A stretch of DNA of 4,754 nt from a virus (Duplodnaviria > Heunggongvirae > Uroviricota > Caudoviricetes), in the IMG/VR virus record IMGVR_UViG_2690316131_000003; one strand, 5' to 3'. Made by a program: the position numbers and the translations under genes. Below the pieces are notes generated by a model. It saw only the letters and a program-made list of their open reading frames with translations. It had not been told where the DNA came from and did no database searches. Positions 156 through 4,754 of this stretch are shown piece by piece; the stretch's first letter is position 1, and every line of letters starts with the position of its first letter.

Positions 156-509
156 TTATCGTCGCCGGTTAACAGCGGGTGGTTGCCCACGGTTGAGCCA
201 GAGATAACAGCTTCCCCCGTCATCCGGAGAAACACGATCCACCCAGAACATCTCGCCGTTAATGGTCAGCGTGTCACCACGCCGCACGGCACGCACCGTA
301 TCCGTCCGCACAAATAATGACGGGCTGCTTCCTTCAATACGGACCCCGCCACCGGCAAAACCCAGCGACTCCGGATCGTCAAAAACCCCCTGAACTTCGC
401 CGCCACGTTGTGCCCCCGAGGTGAACTGCGCACAGAGCCCCATCACTTCAACAATCGTTCTGTCCACCCCGGCAAGGGCAGCATCAAAGGAATTCTCAAA
501 ATCACGCAT
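156..509 (-). CDS. FII: Head-tail joining / head completion protein FII (lambda gpFII-like), 117 aa
   Basis: ORF of 117 aa; C-terminal ...FWVDRVSPDDGGSCYLWLNRGQPPAVNRRR matches the lambda gpFII C-terminus as I recall it; start ATG overlaps the FI stop in the sequence ATGCGTGA (translational coupling); correct synteny position. Confidence 0.9.
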   Translation of the reverse strand: MRDFENSFDAALAGVDRTIVEVMGLCAQFTSGAQRGGEVQGVFDDPESLGFAGGGVRIEGSSPSLFVRTDTVRAVRRGDTLTINGEMFWVDRVSPDDGGSCYLWLNRGQPPAVNRRR

Positions 510-870
510 AAACGGCCATTCCGCTCCTAACCATGTCTTTTGCCACTGAGGGGGGCATCAGAATTACTCTGCCAGCATCAACATGCTCAACAGGCTCACC
601 TGTTTCATCGTCAACACCGCACAGGTAAAAACACTTCAGAAGCCTGATACGTTCCAGAATACCAACGTCATCCTCACCGGTGTGCCTGCATGCCTGCTCA
701 TGAACGGTATCATCAACATCTGCGATTTCATTTTCCGAGGCGCAAACCTCCTCTTCCCACTCTGCCACACGCTGTGCGATATCCGCAGCACTCCCCGACA
801 TATCCGCCTCGCGCCCCAGCAGACCAGCCAGTTCACGAAGACGTTTCTGATTTTCTTCTTTTGTTGCCAT
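502..870 (-). CDS. FI: DNA-packaging / head assembly protein FI (lambda gpFI-like), about 122 aa from the ATG at 870
   Basis: ORF track 502..918; I place the start at the internal ATG 870..868 (MATKEENQKRLRELAGLLG...) because it has a GGAG RBS 6 nt upstream, lies downstream of the E terminator hairpin, and aligns with the lambda gpFI N-terminus (MTKDELIARLRSLGEQL...); the 918 start is a GTG that overlaps the E stop region with no RBS. Confidence 0.8.
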   Translation of the reverse strand: MATKEENQKRLRELAGLLGREADMSGSAADIAQRVAEWEEEVCASENEIADVDDTVHEQACRHTGEDDVGILERIRLLKCFYLCGVDDETGEPVEHVDAGRVILMPPSVAKDMVRSGMAVYA

Positions 871-885
871 ATCCAGCTCCCTGTG

Positions 886-913
886 AAAAAAACACGGGGG
901 CATTTCGCCCCCG
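886..913 (-). terminator. Intrinsic-terminator-like hairpin plus U-tract immediately 3' of the major capsid gene
   Basis: On the minus strand: 7-bp all-G/C stem CGGGGGC (plus 907..913 / 895..901), 5-nt loop GAAAU, then UG and seven U (plus A-run 886..892); begins 8 nt after the E stop codon and ends just before the FI RBS. Confidence 0.6.
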
Positions 914-921
914 CTCACGGA

Positions 922-1950
922 TTATTTCACCTGTACCACCACAAACTCATCCGGATCCGGCAGCACCATCAGCGGCGCGGACTGCGTCATGGTGAATTCA
1001 CAGGACGGATCGCCCACGGTCAGCCAGTGTTTCGGGTAACGGGAAGAAGCCACCACTCCTTCAGACAACGCCTGTGCATCCTTAATGGCTCCATAGCAAC
1101 GAATCCCCTCTGCTGCCGTATTCCCCAGCACCAGCGTGCCCTCCGGCAGATAACGTTTTTCGGTACCGTCCTCTGCCACATAAGACGTTTTCGCTACCAC
1201 AATGGCCAGATCGCCGTAATACCCCTTGAAGGATACCACTGCGCCCAGATCTTTCACTGCCGTTTCGAGTTGTGAATTTGAACCGCGACGGGTATCCATT
1301 TTTTCGCGGAAAAGCTTAAAGCCATTCAGCAGACGCCAGACGGTACCGTCCATAATGGCAATATTCACAAGACCACTGGCCTGATCACAGAAAAGGTCGA
1401 TATCATATGTCGGGTCGAACGTGTCACGATCCTGTTTTGACCACTCCTTACCGCTACCTTGTATGATGTTATTCTTCGTCGATCGGCCAAAATCGACTTC
1501 AATTTTCTCGAACTGGTCTCCTTCCATCGTATATTTGCCATACAGCACGGCATTCACCGCCTGCATTTCTTCCACCTGCACAATAGCGTGCTCTTCCTGT
1601 TTGAGGTTATCAGTGATGATACGCAGACGACGGTAGGCCGGGTCGTTCAGCTGAGCCGGATCTTCACCGGGAAGGCGCTCAACCGCCTGCTGGTAATTAA
1701 ATTCGTGTTTCGGCTTGACGTAGCCCGGACGCAACACGCGGGTTTCACCACCACGATGGCGCAGCACTTTTCCTTCAACGATCGGGGAGACATAGGCCGC
1801 CACCGGCGTTTTTCCGGTAATTTTGTCCAGCATCACCTCTTCGGTGTGGAAATTCACCGTACGGCGGAAAAACAGCTCCAGAAATAGCGCACGGAATTTC
1901 ACTTTTTGTTCGGTATAACCGAGTAACTGGCGGGTCGTAAACAATCCCAT
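922..1950 (-). CDS. E: Major capsid protein E (lambda gpE-like), 342 aa
   Basis: 342-aa ORF; strong similarity along the whole length to lambda gpE as recalled (e.g. YVSPIV, PGYVKPKHE, DPAYRRLRI, VEEMQAV, TRRGSNSQLETAVKDLG, GDLAIVV, SAPLMVLPDPDEFV); AAAGGAA RBS about 8 nt upstream of the ATG at 1950. Confidence 0.95.
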   Translation of the reverse strand: MGLFTTRQLLGYTEQKVKFRALFLELFFRRTVNFHTEEVMLDKITGKTPVAAYVSPIVEGKVLRHRGGETRVLRPGYVKPKHEFNYQQAVERLPGEDPAQLNDPAYRRLRIITDNLKQEEHAIVQVEEMQAVNAVLYGKYTMEGDQFEKIEVDFGRSTKNNIIQGSGKEWSKQDRDTFDPTYDIDLFCDQASGLVNIAIMDGTVWRLLNGFKLFREKMDTRRGSNSQLETAVKDLGAVVSFKGYYGDLAIVVAKTSYVAEDGTEKRYLPEGTLVLGNTAAEGIRCYGAIKDAQALSEGVVASSRYPKHWLTVGDPSCEFTMTQSAPLMVLPDPDEFVVVQVK

Positions 1951-1978
1951 AAATCAGTTCCTTTCATTCAGAAATCAG

Positions 1979-2000
1979 TCAGGCCACCATGGTGGCCTGA
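1979..2000 (-). promoter_or_regulatory. 22-bp perfect palindrome (potential RNA hairpin, 9-bp stem, CAUG loop) in the D-E intergenic region
   Basis: TCAGGCCACCA|TGGTGGCCTGA reads identically on both strands; starts 7 nt after the D stop; no strong U-tract follows, so not a canonical terminator. Confidence 0.4.
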
Positions 2001-2007
2001 TAACGTG

Positions 2008-2355
2008 TTACGGCAGAGCCGCGTGACTCAGGGCTGTGCCGGCAAAGGCATTTGCCTTTTTGTGTTCATCCACACTGTCAGGCCAGCGGATTGCCTCCGT
2101 CGCAAAGGTCCCCGACTTGTAATAGGTCAGCACCGTCTCTGTGCCTTCAAGCGGCAGTACCAGTATGCCAACCGCACTACCGGCTTTCTGTCCATCCCAG
2201 ACCACCAGTTTCCCGGTGGCTTCATCCAGCATCAGGGGCGTCAGAGCCGGTGTTGCAGAAGAAATCCCGCTGCTGCCTGTGGCGGTATGAGCCGGATCAT
2301 TACCAGCAAAAATACGTACTTCCGCACGCTGTTCAGTGATGGTTTTCGTCACCAT
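2008..2355 (-). CDS. D: Head decoration protein D (lambda gpD-like), 115 aa
   Basis: 115-aa ORF; motifs DPAHTATG, PLMLD, KLVVWDG, VGIL, YKSGTF match the lambda gpD pattern as recalled; GAGGT RBS upstream of the ATG at 2355; position between C and E. Confidence 0.92.
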   Translation of the reverse strand: MVTKTITEQRAEVRIFAGNDPAHTATGSSGISSATPALTPLMLDEATGKLVVWDGQKAGSAVGILVLPLEGTETVLTYYKSGTFATEAIRWPDSVDEHKKANAFAGTALSHAALP

Positions 2356-2391: not shown

Positions 2392-2994
2392 TCATGGCAT
2401 GGCCATGAGCATTTTCACGTCCGCATCACCGTCTGCTGACGTCTGTGACACGCCACCCCGCACCGCTGCCGGTGAATGATTCGCCATGAAATGTTCAAAC
2501 AGGGCGGTTGTGGATGCAGAGACCGGTTCGGCCTTACCTGATCCCGCAGCCAGCACAGCCCGGGCGTTCTCCACGGTCATTCCCGGGCAGGCAGCCAGTT
2601 TTTCAGCCTGCGCTTCTGCCCCTTTTGCCTCATCCAGGGCCATGATCTGATCACGAAGTGAGGGCCCGGCATCCGCCAGTGGTGCAGCCGCCAGGATCGG
2701 GCGGGCTTTTTCCACCGTCATCTCCGGCATCGCCGCCAGCGTTGCCGCCAGTTGTTCACGACCGTTCGCTTCTTCACACGCCATAATGCGATCGGCTTCA
2801 CTCTGCGCGGATGCCACCGGCTGCTGCGGTGCCGCCGCGGCCAGAATCGCCCGGGCCTGTTCAACGCTCATGCCCTGTTGCCCTGCCAGCATCGTGGCAA
2901 GCTGTTCACGTCCTTTCGCTTCCTGACACGTCAGGATCCCCATCACTCGCTGGTTCTCCTGCACTGCGGCTTCCGTTGCAGTTAATTGCGGCAT
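2392..2994 (-). CDS. Nu3: Nu3-like scaffolding protein, translated from an in-frame internal start within C (200 aa, co-terminal with C)
   Basis: Internal ATG at 2994..2992 (Met302 of C), preceded by a consensus AGGAGG SD (plus 2999..3004 cctcct) 4 nt upstream; local context GGTMPQLTA... parallels the lambda Nu3 start inside C (established for lambda); downstream holds the scaffold motif. Confidence 0.6.
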   Translation of the reverse strand: MPQLTATEAAVQENQRVMGILTCQEAKGREQLATMLAGQQGMSVEQARAILAAAAPQQPVASAQSEADRIMACEEANGREQLAATLAAMPEMTVEKARPILAAAPLADAGPSLRDQIMALDEAKGAEAQAEKLAACPGMTVENARAVLAAGSGKAEPVSASTTALFEHFMANHSPAAVRGGVSQTSADGDADVKMLMAMP

Positions 2995-3897
2995 AGTGCC
3001 TCCTCTGACATTACTGTTCAGCGCCGTGGCCATCACACTGATGGCATCCGACGCATTGATTAATTCATCCGCCAGCCCGGCCTCAATGCCGGACTGACCT
3101 TCAAAAACGGCGGCCTCTGTTCCCGTGACGGCATCAACAGACAGACCGGTAAACATCGCCACTTTTTCGGCAAACATCCGGCGCGCCGCATCAATGCGCT
3201 GCTGCATGTCCTGGCGAACCTCTGCCGGTAAGGCTTCAAACTGATTGCCATCCACCTTGTGCGTCCCTGAGTAAATCAGCGTGATATCCACACCGGCCTG
3301 CGCCAGATGACCGGCATAGCTGACATGGCTCATCATCACGCCAATGGAGCCGATACGGGATGTCTGGGTAACCAGCCGTCGGGAGCAGGCCGACGCCAGC
3401 AGCATGGCTGCAGAACAGGCCGTGTCATTGCACAGTGCCCAGACCGGCTTCTGCTGACGGAGGCGGTAAATCATGTCAGCGCAGTCAAACGCGCCGGCGG
3501 CCTGCCCGCCCGGACTGTCAATGTCCAGCAGTACGCCCCGCACCTGGCTATCCGCCATTGCCTGCTGAAGACAGGCGACAATACCGTCATAGCCTGTCAT
3601 TCCGGAAAATGGCCGCATACCCCCCAGCCGGTGCACCAGCGTGCCGGTCACCGGCAGTACAGCAATACCGTTCACCACCCTGTAAACACGGGCCGGTCGT
3701 TTACCTCCGGCCATGTACTCGTCCGTTTCAGCCAGCATTCCGGGAGCATCAAACTGTACCTGCTGTTGTGGTACCGAAAGACTTGCTGCCCCCATCTCGC
3801 GCCCGAGCGCGCAAAAGAAAACCCGCGCATAGGCGGGCTCCAGAAGCAGCGGTTCATTGAATGCTGCGGCAATAATGTGTGAAAGATTACGTCTCAC
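2392..3897 (-). CDS. C: Head maturation protease / minor capsid protein C (S49 SppA-like peptidase family) with C-terminal scaffold (Nu3) domain, 501 aa
   Basis: 501-aa ORF; similarity to lambda gpC as recalled (FNEPL.LEPAYARVFF, NGIAVLPV.GTLV, SGMTGY.GI, LLD.D.PGG...AGAFDCAD.I, KPVWAL.ND..CSA..LLASA.SRRLVTQT.R.GSIGVMM.H, ITLIYSG.HKVDGN, GLADEL.N..DAI); start is GTG at 3897..3895 with GAGGAG about 10 nt upstream, overlapping the portal-fragment stop. Confidence 0.88.
   Translation of the reverse strand: MRRNLSHIIAAAFNEPLLLEPAYARVFFCALGREMGAASLSVPQQQVQFDAPGMLAETDEYMAGGKRPARVYRVVNGIAVLPVTGTLVHRLGGMRPFSGMTGYDGIVACLQQAMADSQVRGVLLDIDSPGGQAAGAFDCADMIYRLRQQKPVWALCNDTACSAAMLLASACSRRLVTQTSRIGSIGVMMSHVSYAGHLAQAGVDITLIYSGTHKVDGNQFEALPAEVRQDMQQRIDAARRMFAEKVAMFTGLSVDAVTGTEAAVFEGQSGIEAGLADELINASDAISVMATALNSNVRGGTMPQLTATEAAVQENQRVMGILTCQEAKGREQLATMLAGQQGMSVEQARAILAAAAPQQPVASAQSEADRIMACEEANGREQLAATLAAMPEMTVEKARPILAAAPLADAGPSLRDQIMALDEAKGAEAQAEKLAACPGMTVENARAVLAAGSGKAEPVSASTTALFEHFMANHSPAAVRGGVSQTSADGDADVKMLMAMP
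2512..2949 (-). repeat. Three diverged tandem copies of a ~47-53-aa scaffold motif inside the C/Nu3 coding region
   Basis: Protein-level repeats: RVMGILTCQEAKGREQLATMLAGQQGMSVEQARAILAAAAP / RIMACEEANGREQLAATLAAMPEMTVEKARPILAAAP / QIMALDEAKGAEAQAEKLAACPGMTVENARAVLAAG; DNA copies are clearly diverged, so not recent slippage. Confidence 0.6.
3088..3744. repeat. Direct repeat copy A (within the intact C gene), 657 bp, 654/657 identical to copy B
   Basis: Base-by-base comparison with 4098..4754 at constant offset 1010; only mismatches at 3583, 3619, 3681. Confidence 0.9.
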
Positions 3898-4090
3898 GTG
3901 GTGTTGTCTCCTCTTCCGGCCTGCGACTCTCCGCTATCTGCTGCTGATACGCCTGCGCTATCCACACCGGACGTGAGAGTCCGGCTTTTTGCCGCTCTGC
4001 AGATTCCCTGACCTGCTGGCGGAAAATGTCCTGATAATCCTCGCCCATCAGCGCCAGCTCTTTCTCATACGTGCTCAGTCCGGCCTCAAT
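3887..4090 (-). pseudogene. B: Orphan 3' fragment of the portal gene (lambda gpB-like C-terminal ~67 codons), fused out of frame to C-prime sequence
   Basis: Reading frame IEAGLSTYEKELALMGEDYQDIFRQQVRESAERQKAGLSRPVWIAQAYQQQIAESRRPEEETTPRET* ends with a stop (3887..3889) overlapping the C start, as at a portal-protease junction; it resembles what I recall of the lambda gpB C-terminus; upstream in the same frame (4091..4261) is out-of-frame C-prime sequence, not portal. Confidence 0.55.
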
Positions 4091-4107
4091 GCAAAAAGCC
4101 GGACTGA
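4075..4107. other. Duplication junction: 10-bp perfect inverted repeat (4075..4084 / 4098..4107) flanking a 13-nt spacer that contains the 7-bp novel insertion 4091..4097
   Basis: TCAGTCCGGC ... GCCGGACTGA; one arm lies in the portal fragment, the other in the C-prime copy; the native C copy has only an imperfect version (CAGCCCGGC / GCCGGACTG with 6-nt spacer). Confidence 0.8.
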
Positions 4108-4754
4108 CCTTCAAAAACGGCGGCCTCTGTTCCCGTGACGGCATCAACAGACAGACCGGTAAACATCGCCACTTTTTCGGCAAACATCCGGCGCGCCGCA
4201 TCAATGCGCTGCTGCATGTCCTGGCGAACCTCTGCCGGTAAGGCTTCAAACTGATTGCCATCCACCTTGTGCGTCCCTGAGTAAATCAGCGTGATATCCA
4301 CACCGGCCTGCGCCAGATGACCGGCATAGCTGACATGGCTCATCATCACGCCAATGGAGCCGATACGGGATGTCTGGGTAACCAGCCGTCGGGAGCAGGC
4401 CGACGCCAGCAGCATGGCTGCAGAACAGGCCGTGTCATTGCACAGTGCCCAGACCGGCTTCTGCTGACGGAGGCGGTAAATCATGTCAGCGCAGTCAAAC
4501 GCGCCGGCGGCCTGCCCGCCCGGACTGTCAATGTCCAGCAGTACGCCCCGCACCTGGCTATCCGCCATTGCCTGCTGAAGACAGGCGACAATGCCGTCAT
4601 AGCCTGTCATTCCGGAAAATGGCCGCATCCCCCCCAGCCGGTGCACCAGCGTGCCGGTCACCGGCAGTACAGCAATACCGTTCACCACCCGGTAAACACG
4701 GGCCGGTCGTTTACCTCCGGCCATGTACTCGTCCGTTTCAGCCAGCATTCCGGG
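4086..4754 (-). pseudogene. Truncated duplicate of the protease gene 5' portion (C-prime): would encode C residues about 52-269 in-window, then FLH-stop; 5' end beyond window
   Basis: ORF 4086..4748 translation is identical to C residues 54-269 then diverges after ...FEGQSG into FLH*; the frame stays open to the window edge (APGM... matches C residues 51-54); retains the putative protease core (CSAAMLLASA region) but lacks the scaffold domain. Confidence 0.7.
4098..4754. repeat. Direct repeat copy B (truncated C-prime), 657 bp, runs to the right window edge so its true length is unknown
   Basis: Identical to 3088..3744 except 4593, 4629, 4691; a further 11 nt (4080..4090 = 3077..3087) are identical at offset 1003 on the other side of the 7-bp insertion 4091..4097. 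Confidence 0.9.

What the first reader, a model, noticed from the sequence alone, without database searches (positions are those of the whole stretch)
886..913. Canonical intrinsic-terminator hairpin between the major capsid gene and FI, inside the late operon
A 7-bp G/C stem with a GAAAU loop is followed by UG and seven U, starting 8 nt after the E stop, and the FI RBS follows directly. In a Q-antiterminated late transcript this would be read through by modified polymerase, but it could attenuate unmodified transcription or act as a 3' stabiliser for the abundant D/E message. Either way it would help set the E to FI/FII expression ratio. It also supports the FI start at 870 over 918.
Basis: seen in the sequence. 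Interest (0 to 1): 0.5.

Follow-up and report, generated by a model that had tools for sequence, protein, structure and literature searches.

The report
Terminator-like hairpin after capsid gene
The stable RNA hairpin with a run of U just after the major capsid gene of this phage-21-like prophage is real and conserved, but it is the local version of a stem-loop already annotated after the capsid gene in lambda, HK97 and P22, and its role is still untested.

Summary
On the minus strand, 8 nt after the E stop (924..922), an 8-bp G/C hairpin (914..894, loop GAAAU, -16.8 kcal/mol) is followed by G893 and seven U (892..886). The FI Shine-Dalgarno (882..877) and ATG (870) come next. The hairpin keeps pair probability of at least 0.93 in contexts up to 1001 nt. 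It is the best terminator-like site on either strand of the window.

All 225 related loci with an FI-type gene after E, including lambda, carry a G/C hairpin at this spot. The sequences often differ, and some changes are compensatory. The U tract is not conserved: only 127 of 227 loci reach a terminator-grade score.

A second conserved hairpin lies between D and E. Lambda-type modules have the terminator-grade U tract there; 21-type modules have it after E.

GenBank already annotates such stem-loops or putative terminators after the capsid genes of P22 and HK97, and the P22 note also cites lambda. A phage L paper says their roles are unknown.

Most likely reading: an intrinsic terminator for polymerase not modified by Q, read through by Q-modified polymerase, then left in the message as a 3' protective hairpin. 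No transcript data were available. New member of a known kind; low interest.

The parts
922..1950 (-). Major capsid gene E (342 aa). Its stop UAA is at 924..922.
   Evidence: ORF listed. 60% identical to lambda E. Annotated as major capsid protein in phage 21, PhiR5_1 and E. coli genomes.
894..914 (-). Hairpin GCGGGGGC-GAAAU-GCCCCCGU. It has 7 G-C pairs (913..907 with 901..895) plus G914-U894. The loop is 906..902.
   Evidence: -16.8 kcal/mol and pair probability 0.93-1.00 in contexts up to 1001 nt. Conserved in relatives.
886..893 (-). U tract: G893 followed by seven U (892..886). This is the expected release zone for unmodified RNA polymerase.
   Evidence: Read from the sequence. T-score 3.44 and d = +20.8. 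Most relatives have GUCUUUUUU instead.
877..882 (-). FI Shine-Dalgarno AGGGAG, 6 nt before the ATG.
   Evidence: Read from the sequence. A GGAG-type motif follows the hairpin within 2-13 nt in most relatives' alleles.
502..870 (-). FI (DNA-packaging protein, 122 aa), starting at ATG 870..868.
   Evidence: Annotated with this start in NZ_CP148357, PV340545 and M81255 ORF1. 29% identical to lambda FI. 1-nt indels in the spacer break the frame from GTG 918.
1979..2000 (-). Companion hairpin in the D-E spacer: UCAGGCCAC-CAUG-GUGGCCUGA (-15.8 kcal/mol). Its tail is CUGAUUUCUG, with no U run.
   Evidence: Conserved upstream of E in relatives, and terminator-grade in lambda-type modules.

Best explanation
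The 51-nt spacer between the major capsid gene E and FI encodes the phage-21-type version of a known feature: the stem-loop that lambdoid phages carry right after their major capsid gene.

Proposed mechanism, in three steps:
1. In the nascent late mRNA it folds into an 8-bp G/C hairpin followed by U-G-U7. That is a complete Rho-independent terminator.
2. RNA polymerase that Q has not modified (spurious starts or read-in transcription in a lysogen) should release at about 890..886. Q-modified polymerase in lytic growth should read through.
3. The hairpin then stays in the message and blocks 3'-to-5' exonucleases. RNAs that end there, by residual termination or by cleavage in the U-rich stretch, keep an intact capsid message while the FI-distal RNA decays.

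Shown here: the structure, its stability in context, its position, its conservation and its compensatory changes.
Inferred: termination, read-through and stabilisation.
For: Structure and score:
-. d = +20.8 is the best site on either strand. The trp a terminator control scores 31.1 and shuffles give about 0.

Conservation:
- All 225 of 228 loci with an FI-type downstream gene have a G/C hairpin of 5-11 bp, 2-22 nt after the E stop (52 alleles).
- In 18 of 20 representative FI-type loci it ranks among the nine most stable 26-nt folds of the locus, and in most among the top three.

Different sequences, same structure:
- Window: GCGGGGGC/GCCCCCGU.
- E. coli/Shigella L087: GCGGGAGC/GCUCCCGU, where a G-C pair has become A-U.
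- L020: lost one G and one C.
- Others: Providencia CGGCGGG-GAAA-CCCGCCG; Trabulsiella, an 11-bp stem; lambda AUGGCCC-UUCG-GGGCCAU; an aeromonad CAUGCCCC-UGAAU-GGGGCAUG.
- Within the lambda type, RNAalifold finds 2 pairs with compensatory changes.

Context:
- It is not a dispersed repeat.
- In lambda, D-E (55 nt) and E-FI (41 nt) are the only spacers over about 12 nt among C to V, and both hold hairpins.
- Loops are often UNCG or GNRA tetraloops: UUCG, UACG, UCCG, GAAA, GCGA.
- Terminators can raise upstream mRNA stability (abstract of PMC11696848).
- The phage L paper lists partial termination or blocking of non-antiterminated transcription as the possible roles.
Against: - There are no 3'-end or RNA-seq data for this or any related phage. 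The EHEC Term-seq study describes no Term-seq of mitomycin-induced cultures and holds no site list in its text.
- The U tract is not conserved. 100 of 227 loci score below the terminator threshold, and some alleles have none (Trabulsiella CUGGAGG; Buttiauxella-type L148 UGUGGAG). Termination therefore cannot be the shared function.
- The core GGCCC/GGGCC of the lambda type never varies, which says nothing about structure.
- From memory, not checked here: Sampson, Hendrix, Huang and Casjens (PNAS 1988) attributed the different lambda late-protein yields mainly to translation initiation rather than mRNA level.
- The E stop lies only 8 nt before the stem. A terminating ribosome would cover the 5' arm and could delay folding (inference).
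Confidence: 0.5

Rival explanations
1. Insulator only. The element exists to stop polymerase that was not loaded with Q (spurious promoters, read-in from the host chromosome in a lysogen). Head and tail genes then stay strictly Q-dependent. It has no effect on message ratios during lytic growth.
For: - The reciprocal pattern fits a need for at least one real terminator near E, on either side.
- 21-type modules: terminator-grade tail after E in 24 of 31 unique flank combinations, but before E in 1 of 31.
- Lambda-type modules: before E in 72 of 72, after E in 17 of 72.
- The phage L paper names this as one of two possibilities.
- HK97 carries several annotated putative terminators inside its late operon.
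Against: - Hairpins without any U tract are conserved just as well on the 'other' side of E. Termination alone therefore does not explain them.
- Trabulsiella L090 has no terminator-grade site on either side.
Confidence: 0.2
2. True attenuator. Even Q-modified polymerase terminates here at a fixed fraction. This lowers transcription of FI, FII and the tail genes relative to D and E, as inefficient terminators do in T7.
For: - The shape is canonical and the score is high.
- Inefficient terminators are reported to balance expression in T7 and in Pseudomonas phages (PMC9163698).
Against: - In lambda-type modules the terminator-grade hairpin lies between D and E (72 of 72). There, attenuation would cut E relative to D, although both are needed in about equal numbers per capsid (established knowledge).
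- About half of the E-FI alleles lack a usable U tract.
- Q-modified polymerase is known to resist intrinsic terminators (established knowledge).
Confidence: 0.13
3. Translation element for FI. The hairpin and the pyrimidine-rich tail organise the FI initiation region. They would keep the Shine-Dalgarno free of long-range pairing, offer a U-rich landing site for ribosomal protein S1, or gate the site through weak alternative pairings.
For: - In nearly every allele the hairpin is followed within 2-13 nt by GGAG and the FI start, through a U/C-rich linker.
- In the window the U run (893..885) can pair with FI codons 4-8 (855..847) and enclose the SD and AUG.
- In several relatives a pyrimidine stretch just after the E stop can pair with the SD across the hairpin.
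Against: - The alternative helices are weak, and their covariation was not tested.
- The same kind of hairpin follows capsid genes with unrelated downstream genes: P22 orf69 and HK97 gp6.
- An equivalent hairpin precedes E.
Confidence: 0.12
4. No function: a chance inverted repeat, or a leftover of recombination at a module boundary.
For: The core of the hairpin never varies within each sequence type, so much of the 'conservation' is simple descent.
Against: - Non-homologous hairpins occupy the same spot in distant modules, and some changes are compensatory.
- It ranks at the top of local folds.
- The mosaic breakpoint relative to phage 21 lies inside FI at about window 749, not at the hairpin.
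Confidence: 0.05

Closest known systems
Stem-loops or putative terminators annotated after the major capsid gene of P22, HK97 and lambda
   Same: - Same place: a few nt after the capsid gene stop, before the next gene's Shine-Dalgarno, inside the late operon.
- Same build: a 6-8-bp G/C stem, a short loop and a U/C-rich tail.
- P22 (NC_002371) has a stem_loop at 6102..6119, noted as 'similar in location to stem-loops in phage HK97 and phage lambda'. Its sequence is AGGGGC-UGC-GGCCCCU UUCUUUAUGGAG.
- HK97 (NC_002167) has a 'terminator putative' at 5192..5213. Its sequence is GGGCGGG-GAAA-CCCGCCC UUUUAACG.
- Lambda has AUGGCCC-UUCG-GGGCCAU UGUUUCUCUG.
   Different: - The sequence is unrelated to the lambda, P22 and HK97 versions.
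- The window allele has the cleanest U tract of the set (seven U, d = +20.8, against +9.7 for lambda).
- It is not annotated in phage 21 (M81255), PhiR5_1 or the E. coli RefSeq records.
Intra-late-operon terminator at the end of the procapsid module of phage L and P22-like phages (bioRxiv 10.1101/2020.10.05.325894)
   Same: - A predicted Rho-independent terminator inside a single-promoter, antiterminated late operon, at the end of the head-shell genes.
[quoted passage not shown] They offer partial termination, or blocking of transcription that lacks antitermination.
   Different: Different head gene family (P22-type coat gene rather than lambda E). The prediction there is also only in silico.
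T7 T-phi after gene 10, and other leaky phage terminators
   Same: A terminator placed after the major capsid gene, with read-through into downstream structural genes. Inefficient terminators balance expression (PMC9163698; the T-phi position is from established knowledge).
   Different: T7 uses its own polymerase and has no antiterminator. Here the polymerase is expected to be Q-modified and largely terminator-resistant.
Intercistronic 3'-stabiliser hairpins (Rhodobacter puf operon, E. coli malE-malF REP, T4 C(UUCG)G hairpins)
   Same: A stable hairpin, often with a UNCG or GNRA tetraloop, at the 3' end of the highly expressed cistron of a polycistronic RNA. It is proposed to block 3' exonucleases. 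This comes from established knowledge; the general terminator-stability link appears in the abstract of PMC11696848.
   Different: - No decay intermediates have been shown for this element.
- It is not a repeated element: one copy per contig.

Membership tests
Rho-independent (intrinsic) terminator | G/C-rich stem of about 5-14 bp with a loop of 3-8 nt | tested here: met
   8 bp (7 G-C plus 1 G-U), loop of 5 nt, -16.8 kcal/mol.
Rho-independent (intrinsic) terminator | U tract directly 3' of the stem | tested here: met
   U894, G893, then U892..886: eight U in nine nt. T-score 3.44.
Rho-independent (intrinsic) terminator | Lies on the transcribed strand, downstream of a gene, outside coding sequence | tested here: met
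   Minus strand, in the 51-nt E-FI spacer. The plus strand has no T run after the stem.
Rho-independent (intrinsic) terminator | Combined hairpin and U-tract score above the terminator threshold (discriminant of the d'Aubenton-Carafa type; formula recalled from memory, Turner energies) | tested here: met
   d = +20.8, the best site on either strand. The trp a control scores 31.1. Shuffles give 0.1 sites at d>=0 and none at d>=20.
Rho-independent (intrinsic) terminator | RNA 3' ends or transcript release at the U tract | not testable with these tools
   No transcript data found. The EHEC Term-seq study describes no Term-seq of induced cultures and has no site table in its text.
Rho-independent (intrinsic) terminator | U tract kept at the homologous site in relatives | tested here: inconclusive
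   127 of 227 loci reach d>0. By module type: 24 of 31 unique flank combinations for the 21 type, 17 of 72 for the lambda type.
Capsid-gene-distal stem-loop of lambdoid phages (as annotated for P22, HK97, lambda) | Stable stem-loop a few nt after the major capsid gene stop, before the next gene's ribosome-binding site, in the late operon | tested here: met
   Window. Same place in lambda, P22 and HK97.
Capsid-gene-distal stem-loop of lambdoid phages (as annotated for P22, HK97, lambda) | Structure kept while sequence changes among E-FI modules | tested here: met
   52 alleles in 228 loci. G-C to A-U and U-A to C-G double changes, and a paired one-base deletion in both arms.
Curated RNA family (Rfam 15) | Match to a covariance model | tested here: not met
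   No match at or near 886..914, even at E-value up to 1.
Dispersed palindromic repeat (REP/BIME-like) | Many copies per genome in different contexts | tested here: not met
   120 of 120 contigs carry one copy, always after the E C-terminus.
mRNA 3'-stabiliser hairpin | Decay intermediates ending at the hairpin, and a shorter upstream half-life when the stem is broken | not testable with these tools
   Only the thermodynamic stability and tetraloop-rich alleles could be shown.

The most novel reading that the evidence does not exclude
The major capsid gene of lambda-like head modules is bracketed by two conserved hairpins, one in the D-E spacer and one in the E-FI spacer. Together they would define a nuclease-resistant capsid-message cassette within the long Q-antiterminated transcript.

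The terminator-grade U tract sits on opposite sides of E in the two lineages: after E in the 21 type, before E in the lambda type. If this reading is right, post-transcriptional processing, rather than termination, would be the conserved reason for these structures. It would also be a so far unmeasured contributor to capsid protein supply.
Probability: 0.25. Interest if true: 0.4.

Novelty: new member of a known kind. Interest (0 to 1): 0.2.

Why it matters
Little changes for phage biology. A stem-loop after the major capsid gene is already noted in the P22 and HK97 records, and the P22 note also cites lambda. This is the phage-21-type copy, which is common: the window matches 2062 of 5426 complete E. 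coli genomes.

Two practical points follow:
- It fixes the FI start at ATG 870.
- Genome annotation of 21-like prophages could mark it, because current records do not.

The modest new observation is comparative. Hairpins flank E on both sides across the family, and the U tract switches sides between lineages. This gives a clean pair of natural variants for testing what intra-operon terminators do in antiterminated operons. The literature calls that question open.

Tried and rejected
Searches that gave nothing:
- Rfam at a permissive threshold: nothing at the site.
- Ten literature searches for transcript mapping of lambda or 21-type late operons: no 3'-end data.
- Four papers are not held in the library: the lambda ribosome-profiling paper (looked up twice), Sampson et al. 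1988, and the Casjens and Hendrix 2015 review. What I say about Sampson et al. is from memory.
- The EHEC Term-seq paper describes no Term-seq of mitomycin-induced cultures and lists no sites in its text, so I did not pursue it.

Ideas rejected:
- Dispersed repeat: rejected, one copy per contig.
- Bidirectional terminator: rejected, because the plus strand has an A run before the stem and no T run after it.
- RNase III site: rejected by reasoning, since the stem is far shorter than the roughly 20 bp that enzyme needs.
- Mosaic junction at the hairpin: rejected, because similarity to phage 21 breaks inside FI near window 749.

Limits of the sampling and alignment:
- The first relatives search returned only sequences at least 96% identical. 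Diversity came from the species-level genome scan and three further queries.
- MAFFT/RNAalifold on 24 lambda-type spacers recovered only the 6-bp core and pushed the outermost pair into gapped columns. Cross-family covariation therefore rests on my loop-anchored table. That table is fitted to the hairpin, so it cannot serve as an independent test of pairing. The independent test is the rank of the site among all local folds.

Full report
**What the window is**

The window carries the head genes of a phage-21-like lambdoid prophage on its minus strand:
- C/Nu3: 2392..3897
- D/shp: 2008..2355
- E, the major capsid protein: 922..1950
- FI: 502..870
- FII: 156..509

E is 60% identical to lambda E, and FI is 29% identical to lambda FI. 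The DNA is 91-95% identical to phage 21, PhiR5_1 and related phages. It matches 2062 of 5426 complete E. coli genomes. In a complete E. coli genome the genes from terminase to tape measure are co-oriented with very short gaps, as expected of one late operon.

**Checking the observation**

On the minus strand the E stop UAA is at 924..922. After 8 nt comes the stem CGGGGGC (913..907), the loop GAAAU (906..902) and the return arm GCCCCCG (901..895). A G914-U894 pair extends the stem to 8 bp. Then come G893 and seven U (892..886), CAC, the Shine-Dalgarno AGGGAG (882..877) and the FI ATG at 870. All details in the finding are correct.

Stability:
- The hairpin alone is worth -16.8 kcal/mol.
- The seven core pairs keep a probability of 0.93-1.00 when folded within 71, 201, 401, 601 or 1001 nt of mRNA.

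More than chance:
- It is the top entry of the pattern scan.
- It is the second most stable 26-nt fold on this strand.
- With a hairpin plus U-tract discriminant it scores d = +20.8, the best on either strand. The formula is recalled from d'Aubenton-Carafa et al. and used with modern energies, so it is approximate.
- The trp a terminator control scores 31.1. Shuffled windows give 0.1 sites at d>=0 and none at d>=20.

**The FI start**

Three independent annotations start FI at the ATG that corresponds to window 870. Among relatives whose E protein is 98-100% identical, the spacer differs by single-base indels. L012 has six U. The L021 type, with 15 loci, is one base longer. Both put GTG 918 out of frame with the ATG.

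**Relatives**

I collected 228 loci with the 3' end of an E homologue. They came from viral contigs and from one genome per species, with E identity from 100% down to 28%.
- 225 loci have an FI-type gene after E, and every one has a G/C hairpin of 5-11 bp, 2-22 nt after the E stop (52 alleles).
- The three exceptions are a Kosakonia locus where a different gene follows at once, a truncated E (L242), and one alphaproteobacterial locus (L138).
- In 18 of 20 representative FI-type loci the hairpin ranks among the nine most stable 26-nt folds of the 1.9-4.8 kb held, and in most among the top three.

The sequences differ between lineages:
- Window and phage 21: GCGGGGGC-GAAAU-GCCCCCGU
- An E. coli/Shigella relative: GCGGGAGC-UAAAU-GCUCCCGU, where one G-C pair has become A-U
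- L020: one G and one C lost together
- Providencia: CGGCGGG-GAAA-CCCGCCG
- Trabulsiella: an 11-bp stem
- Serratia: AGGGGC-UACG-GCCCCU
- Lambda: AUGGCCC-UUCG-GGGCCAU
- Enterobacter/Klebsiella types: GUGGCCC-UGUC-GGGCCAC and GCGGCCC-UUCG-GGGCCGU
- An aeromonad: CAUGCCCC-UGAAU-GGGGCAUG

Within the lambda type the GGCCC/GGGCC core never varies and so says nothing either way. The basal pairs show compensatory changes. The exact 21-mer of the window occurs once per contig and always after the E C-terminus (120 of 120), so it is not a dispersed repeat.

**What is and is not conserved**

The hairpin is conserved, but the U tract is not.
- The window's uninterrupted seven U is a minority allele: 7 of 120 sampled contigs. 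Most have GUCUUUUUU, which scores only d = +5.9.
- Lambda scores +9.7.
- 100 of 227 loci score below zero. In these the tail is cut short by the FI Shine-Dalgarno, for example CUUUCUGGAG, CUGUUCCGGAG or CUGGAGG.

So 'terminator' describes this allele well, but it cannot be the function shared by the family.

**A second hairpin**

The D-E spacer also holds a conserved hairpin.
- In the window it is UCAGGCCAC-CAUG-GUGGCCUGA at 2000..1979 (-15.8 kcal/mol), with no U run.
- In lambda-type modules the D-E hairpin is a textbook terminator shape, AAAGGCCGC-CUGU-GCGGCUUUUUUUACGGG.

| Module type | D-E: terminator-grade (d>0) | D-E: median d | E-FI: terminator-grade (d>0) | E-FI: median d |
|---|---|---|---|---|
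| 21-type (31 unique flank combinations) | 1 of 31 | -27 | 24 of 31 | +5.9 |
| Lambda-type (72 unique flank combinations) | 72 of 72 | +26 | 17 of 72 | -13 |

In lambda, D-E (55 nt) and E-FI (41 nt) are the only spacers longer than about 12 nt between C and V. The C-D spacer of the window has no comparable hairpin.

**What is already known**

- The HK97 record annotates a 'terminator putative' after major head gene 5, and another after the major tail gene.
- Both have the same build as the window element.
- A genome paper on phage L describes a predicted terminator at the end of the procapsid module, inside the single-promoter late operon. [quoted passage not shown] It offers two options: partial termination, or stopping transcription that began without antitermination.
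- Leaky terminators that balance expression are documented in T7 and in Pseudomonas phages.
- Terminators can raise upstream mRNA stability (abstract of PMC11696848).
- The phage 21, PhiR5_1 and E. coli records do not annotate the element studied here.

**Mechanism**

I commit to the following reading, with about 50% confidence.
1. The element is a working intrinsic terminator for unmodified polymerase.
2. Q-modified polymerase reads through it.
3. It then persists in the message as a 3' protective hairpin for the capsid message.

The structure, place and conservation are shown. Termination, read-through and stabilisation are inferred.

The reciprocal U-tract pattern is the best argument for the insulator rival. 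That pattern suggests a need for one real terminator near E, on either side. It is also the best argument against a simple attenuator. In lambda-type modules attenuation would fall between D and E, which are needed in equal numbers.

A translation role for FI cannot be excluded, for three reasons:
- The Shine-Dalgarno always follows closely, through a pyrimidine-rich linker.
- The U run can pair weakly with FI codons 4-8.
- In some relatives a pyrimidine stretch after the E stop can pair with the Shine-Dalgarno across the hairpin.

None of these pairings was tested for covariation.

**Verdict**

- The element is a new, unannotated member of a known kind.
- Interest is low. The one mildly new point is that E is flanked by two conserved hairpins whose U tract switches sides between lineages.

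Noticed in passing
window 1979..2000 (minus strand), D-E spacer 1951..2007: A second conserved hairpin, UCAGGCCAC-CAUG-GUGGCCUGA (-15.8 kcal/mol), sits between D and E and has no U run. In lambda-type modules the D-E hairpin is a canonical terminator shape (A tract, GC stem, seven U). The terminator-grade U tract is before E in the lambda type (72 of 72) and after E in the 21 type (24 of 31).
   Followed up: partly
window 4093..4754 versus 3083..3744: The last 660 nt of the window nearly duplicate an internal part of gene C (4 mismatches). The junction is an 11-bp microhomology, GGCCTCAATGC (3078..3088 and 4082..4092), within the portal gene 3' end. Complete E. coli genomes are colinear over 4092 bp without this duplication. 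It is either a rearranged or chimeric prophage, or an assembly artefact.
   Followed up: partly
window 3072..3097 (minus strand): The most stable 26-nt local fold of the mRNA strand (-18.1 kcal/mol, CAGUCCGGC...GCCGGGCUG) lies inside gene C, exactly at the duplication junction sequence.
   Followed up: no
window 3822..3837 (minus strand): A second terminator-like site with a positive score (d = +10.4): CCCGCC-UAUG-CGCGGG followed by UUUUCUUUUGCG. It lies inside the start of gene C, close to the overlap with the portal gene end.
   Followed up: no
window 885..893 with 847..855 (minus strand): In the 201-nt fold the U run pairs with the purine-rich FI codons 4-8 (AAAAGAAGAAAA), enclosing the FI Shine-Dalgarno and AUG in a loop. 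FI homologues generally begin with Lys/Glu-rich codons, so this may be a by-product.
   Followed up: no
loci L165, L181, L183, L203 and similar, first 40 nt after the E stop: A pyrimidine stretch just after the E stop (ACUUCC or ACUCC) can pair with the FI Shine-Dalgarno (GGAGU) across the hairpin, giving a two-tier stem. This could couple FI translation to E termination. Covariation was not tested.
   Followed up: no
window about 749 (inside FI): Similarity to phage 21 and most relatives stops at query position 249-250 of window 500..2000. The C-terminal half of FI, together with FII, therefore belongs to a different mosaic segment, shared only with PhiR5_1 among phage records.
   Followed up: no
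loci L093-L108 and L126-L134 (genome contigs): Short, low-coverage contigs in assemblies of unrelated taxa (Chromatium, Kitasatospora, Paenibacillus, Bradyrhizobium, Akkermansia, Prevotella and others) encode an E protein 59-62% identical to the window's, like lambda's own. Those that reach the E stop also carry lambda's exact spacer. This is probably lambda DNA contamination of those assemblies.
   Followed up: no
loci L242 and L243: The E homologue matches only to residue 323, and then unrelated sequence follows with no hairpin. This may be an insertion into the 3' end of E. A paper on satellites integrated within prophage late genes turned up in a search (PMC10111431).
   Followed up: no
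window 2392..2900 (gene C / Nu3 region, minus strand): The C-terminal part of the C protein holds three repeats of about 35-47 aa (...EAKGREQLA...VEQARAILAAA...). The phage 21 record annotates them as Tri boxes with 'function unknown'.
   Followed up: no
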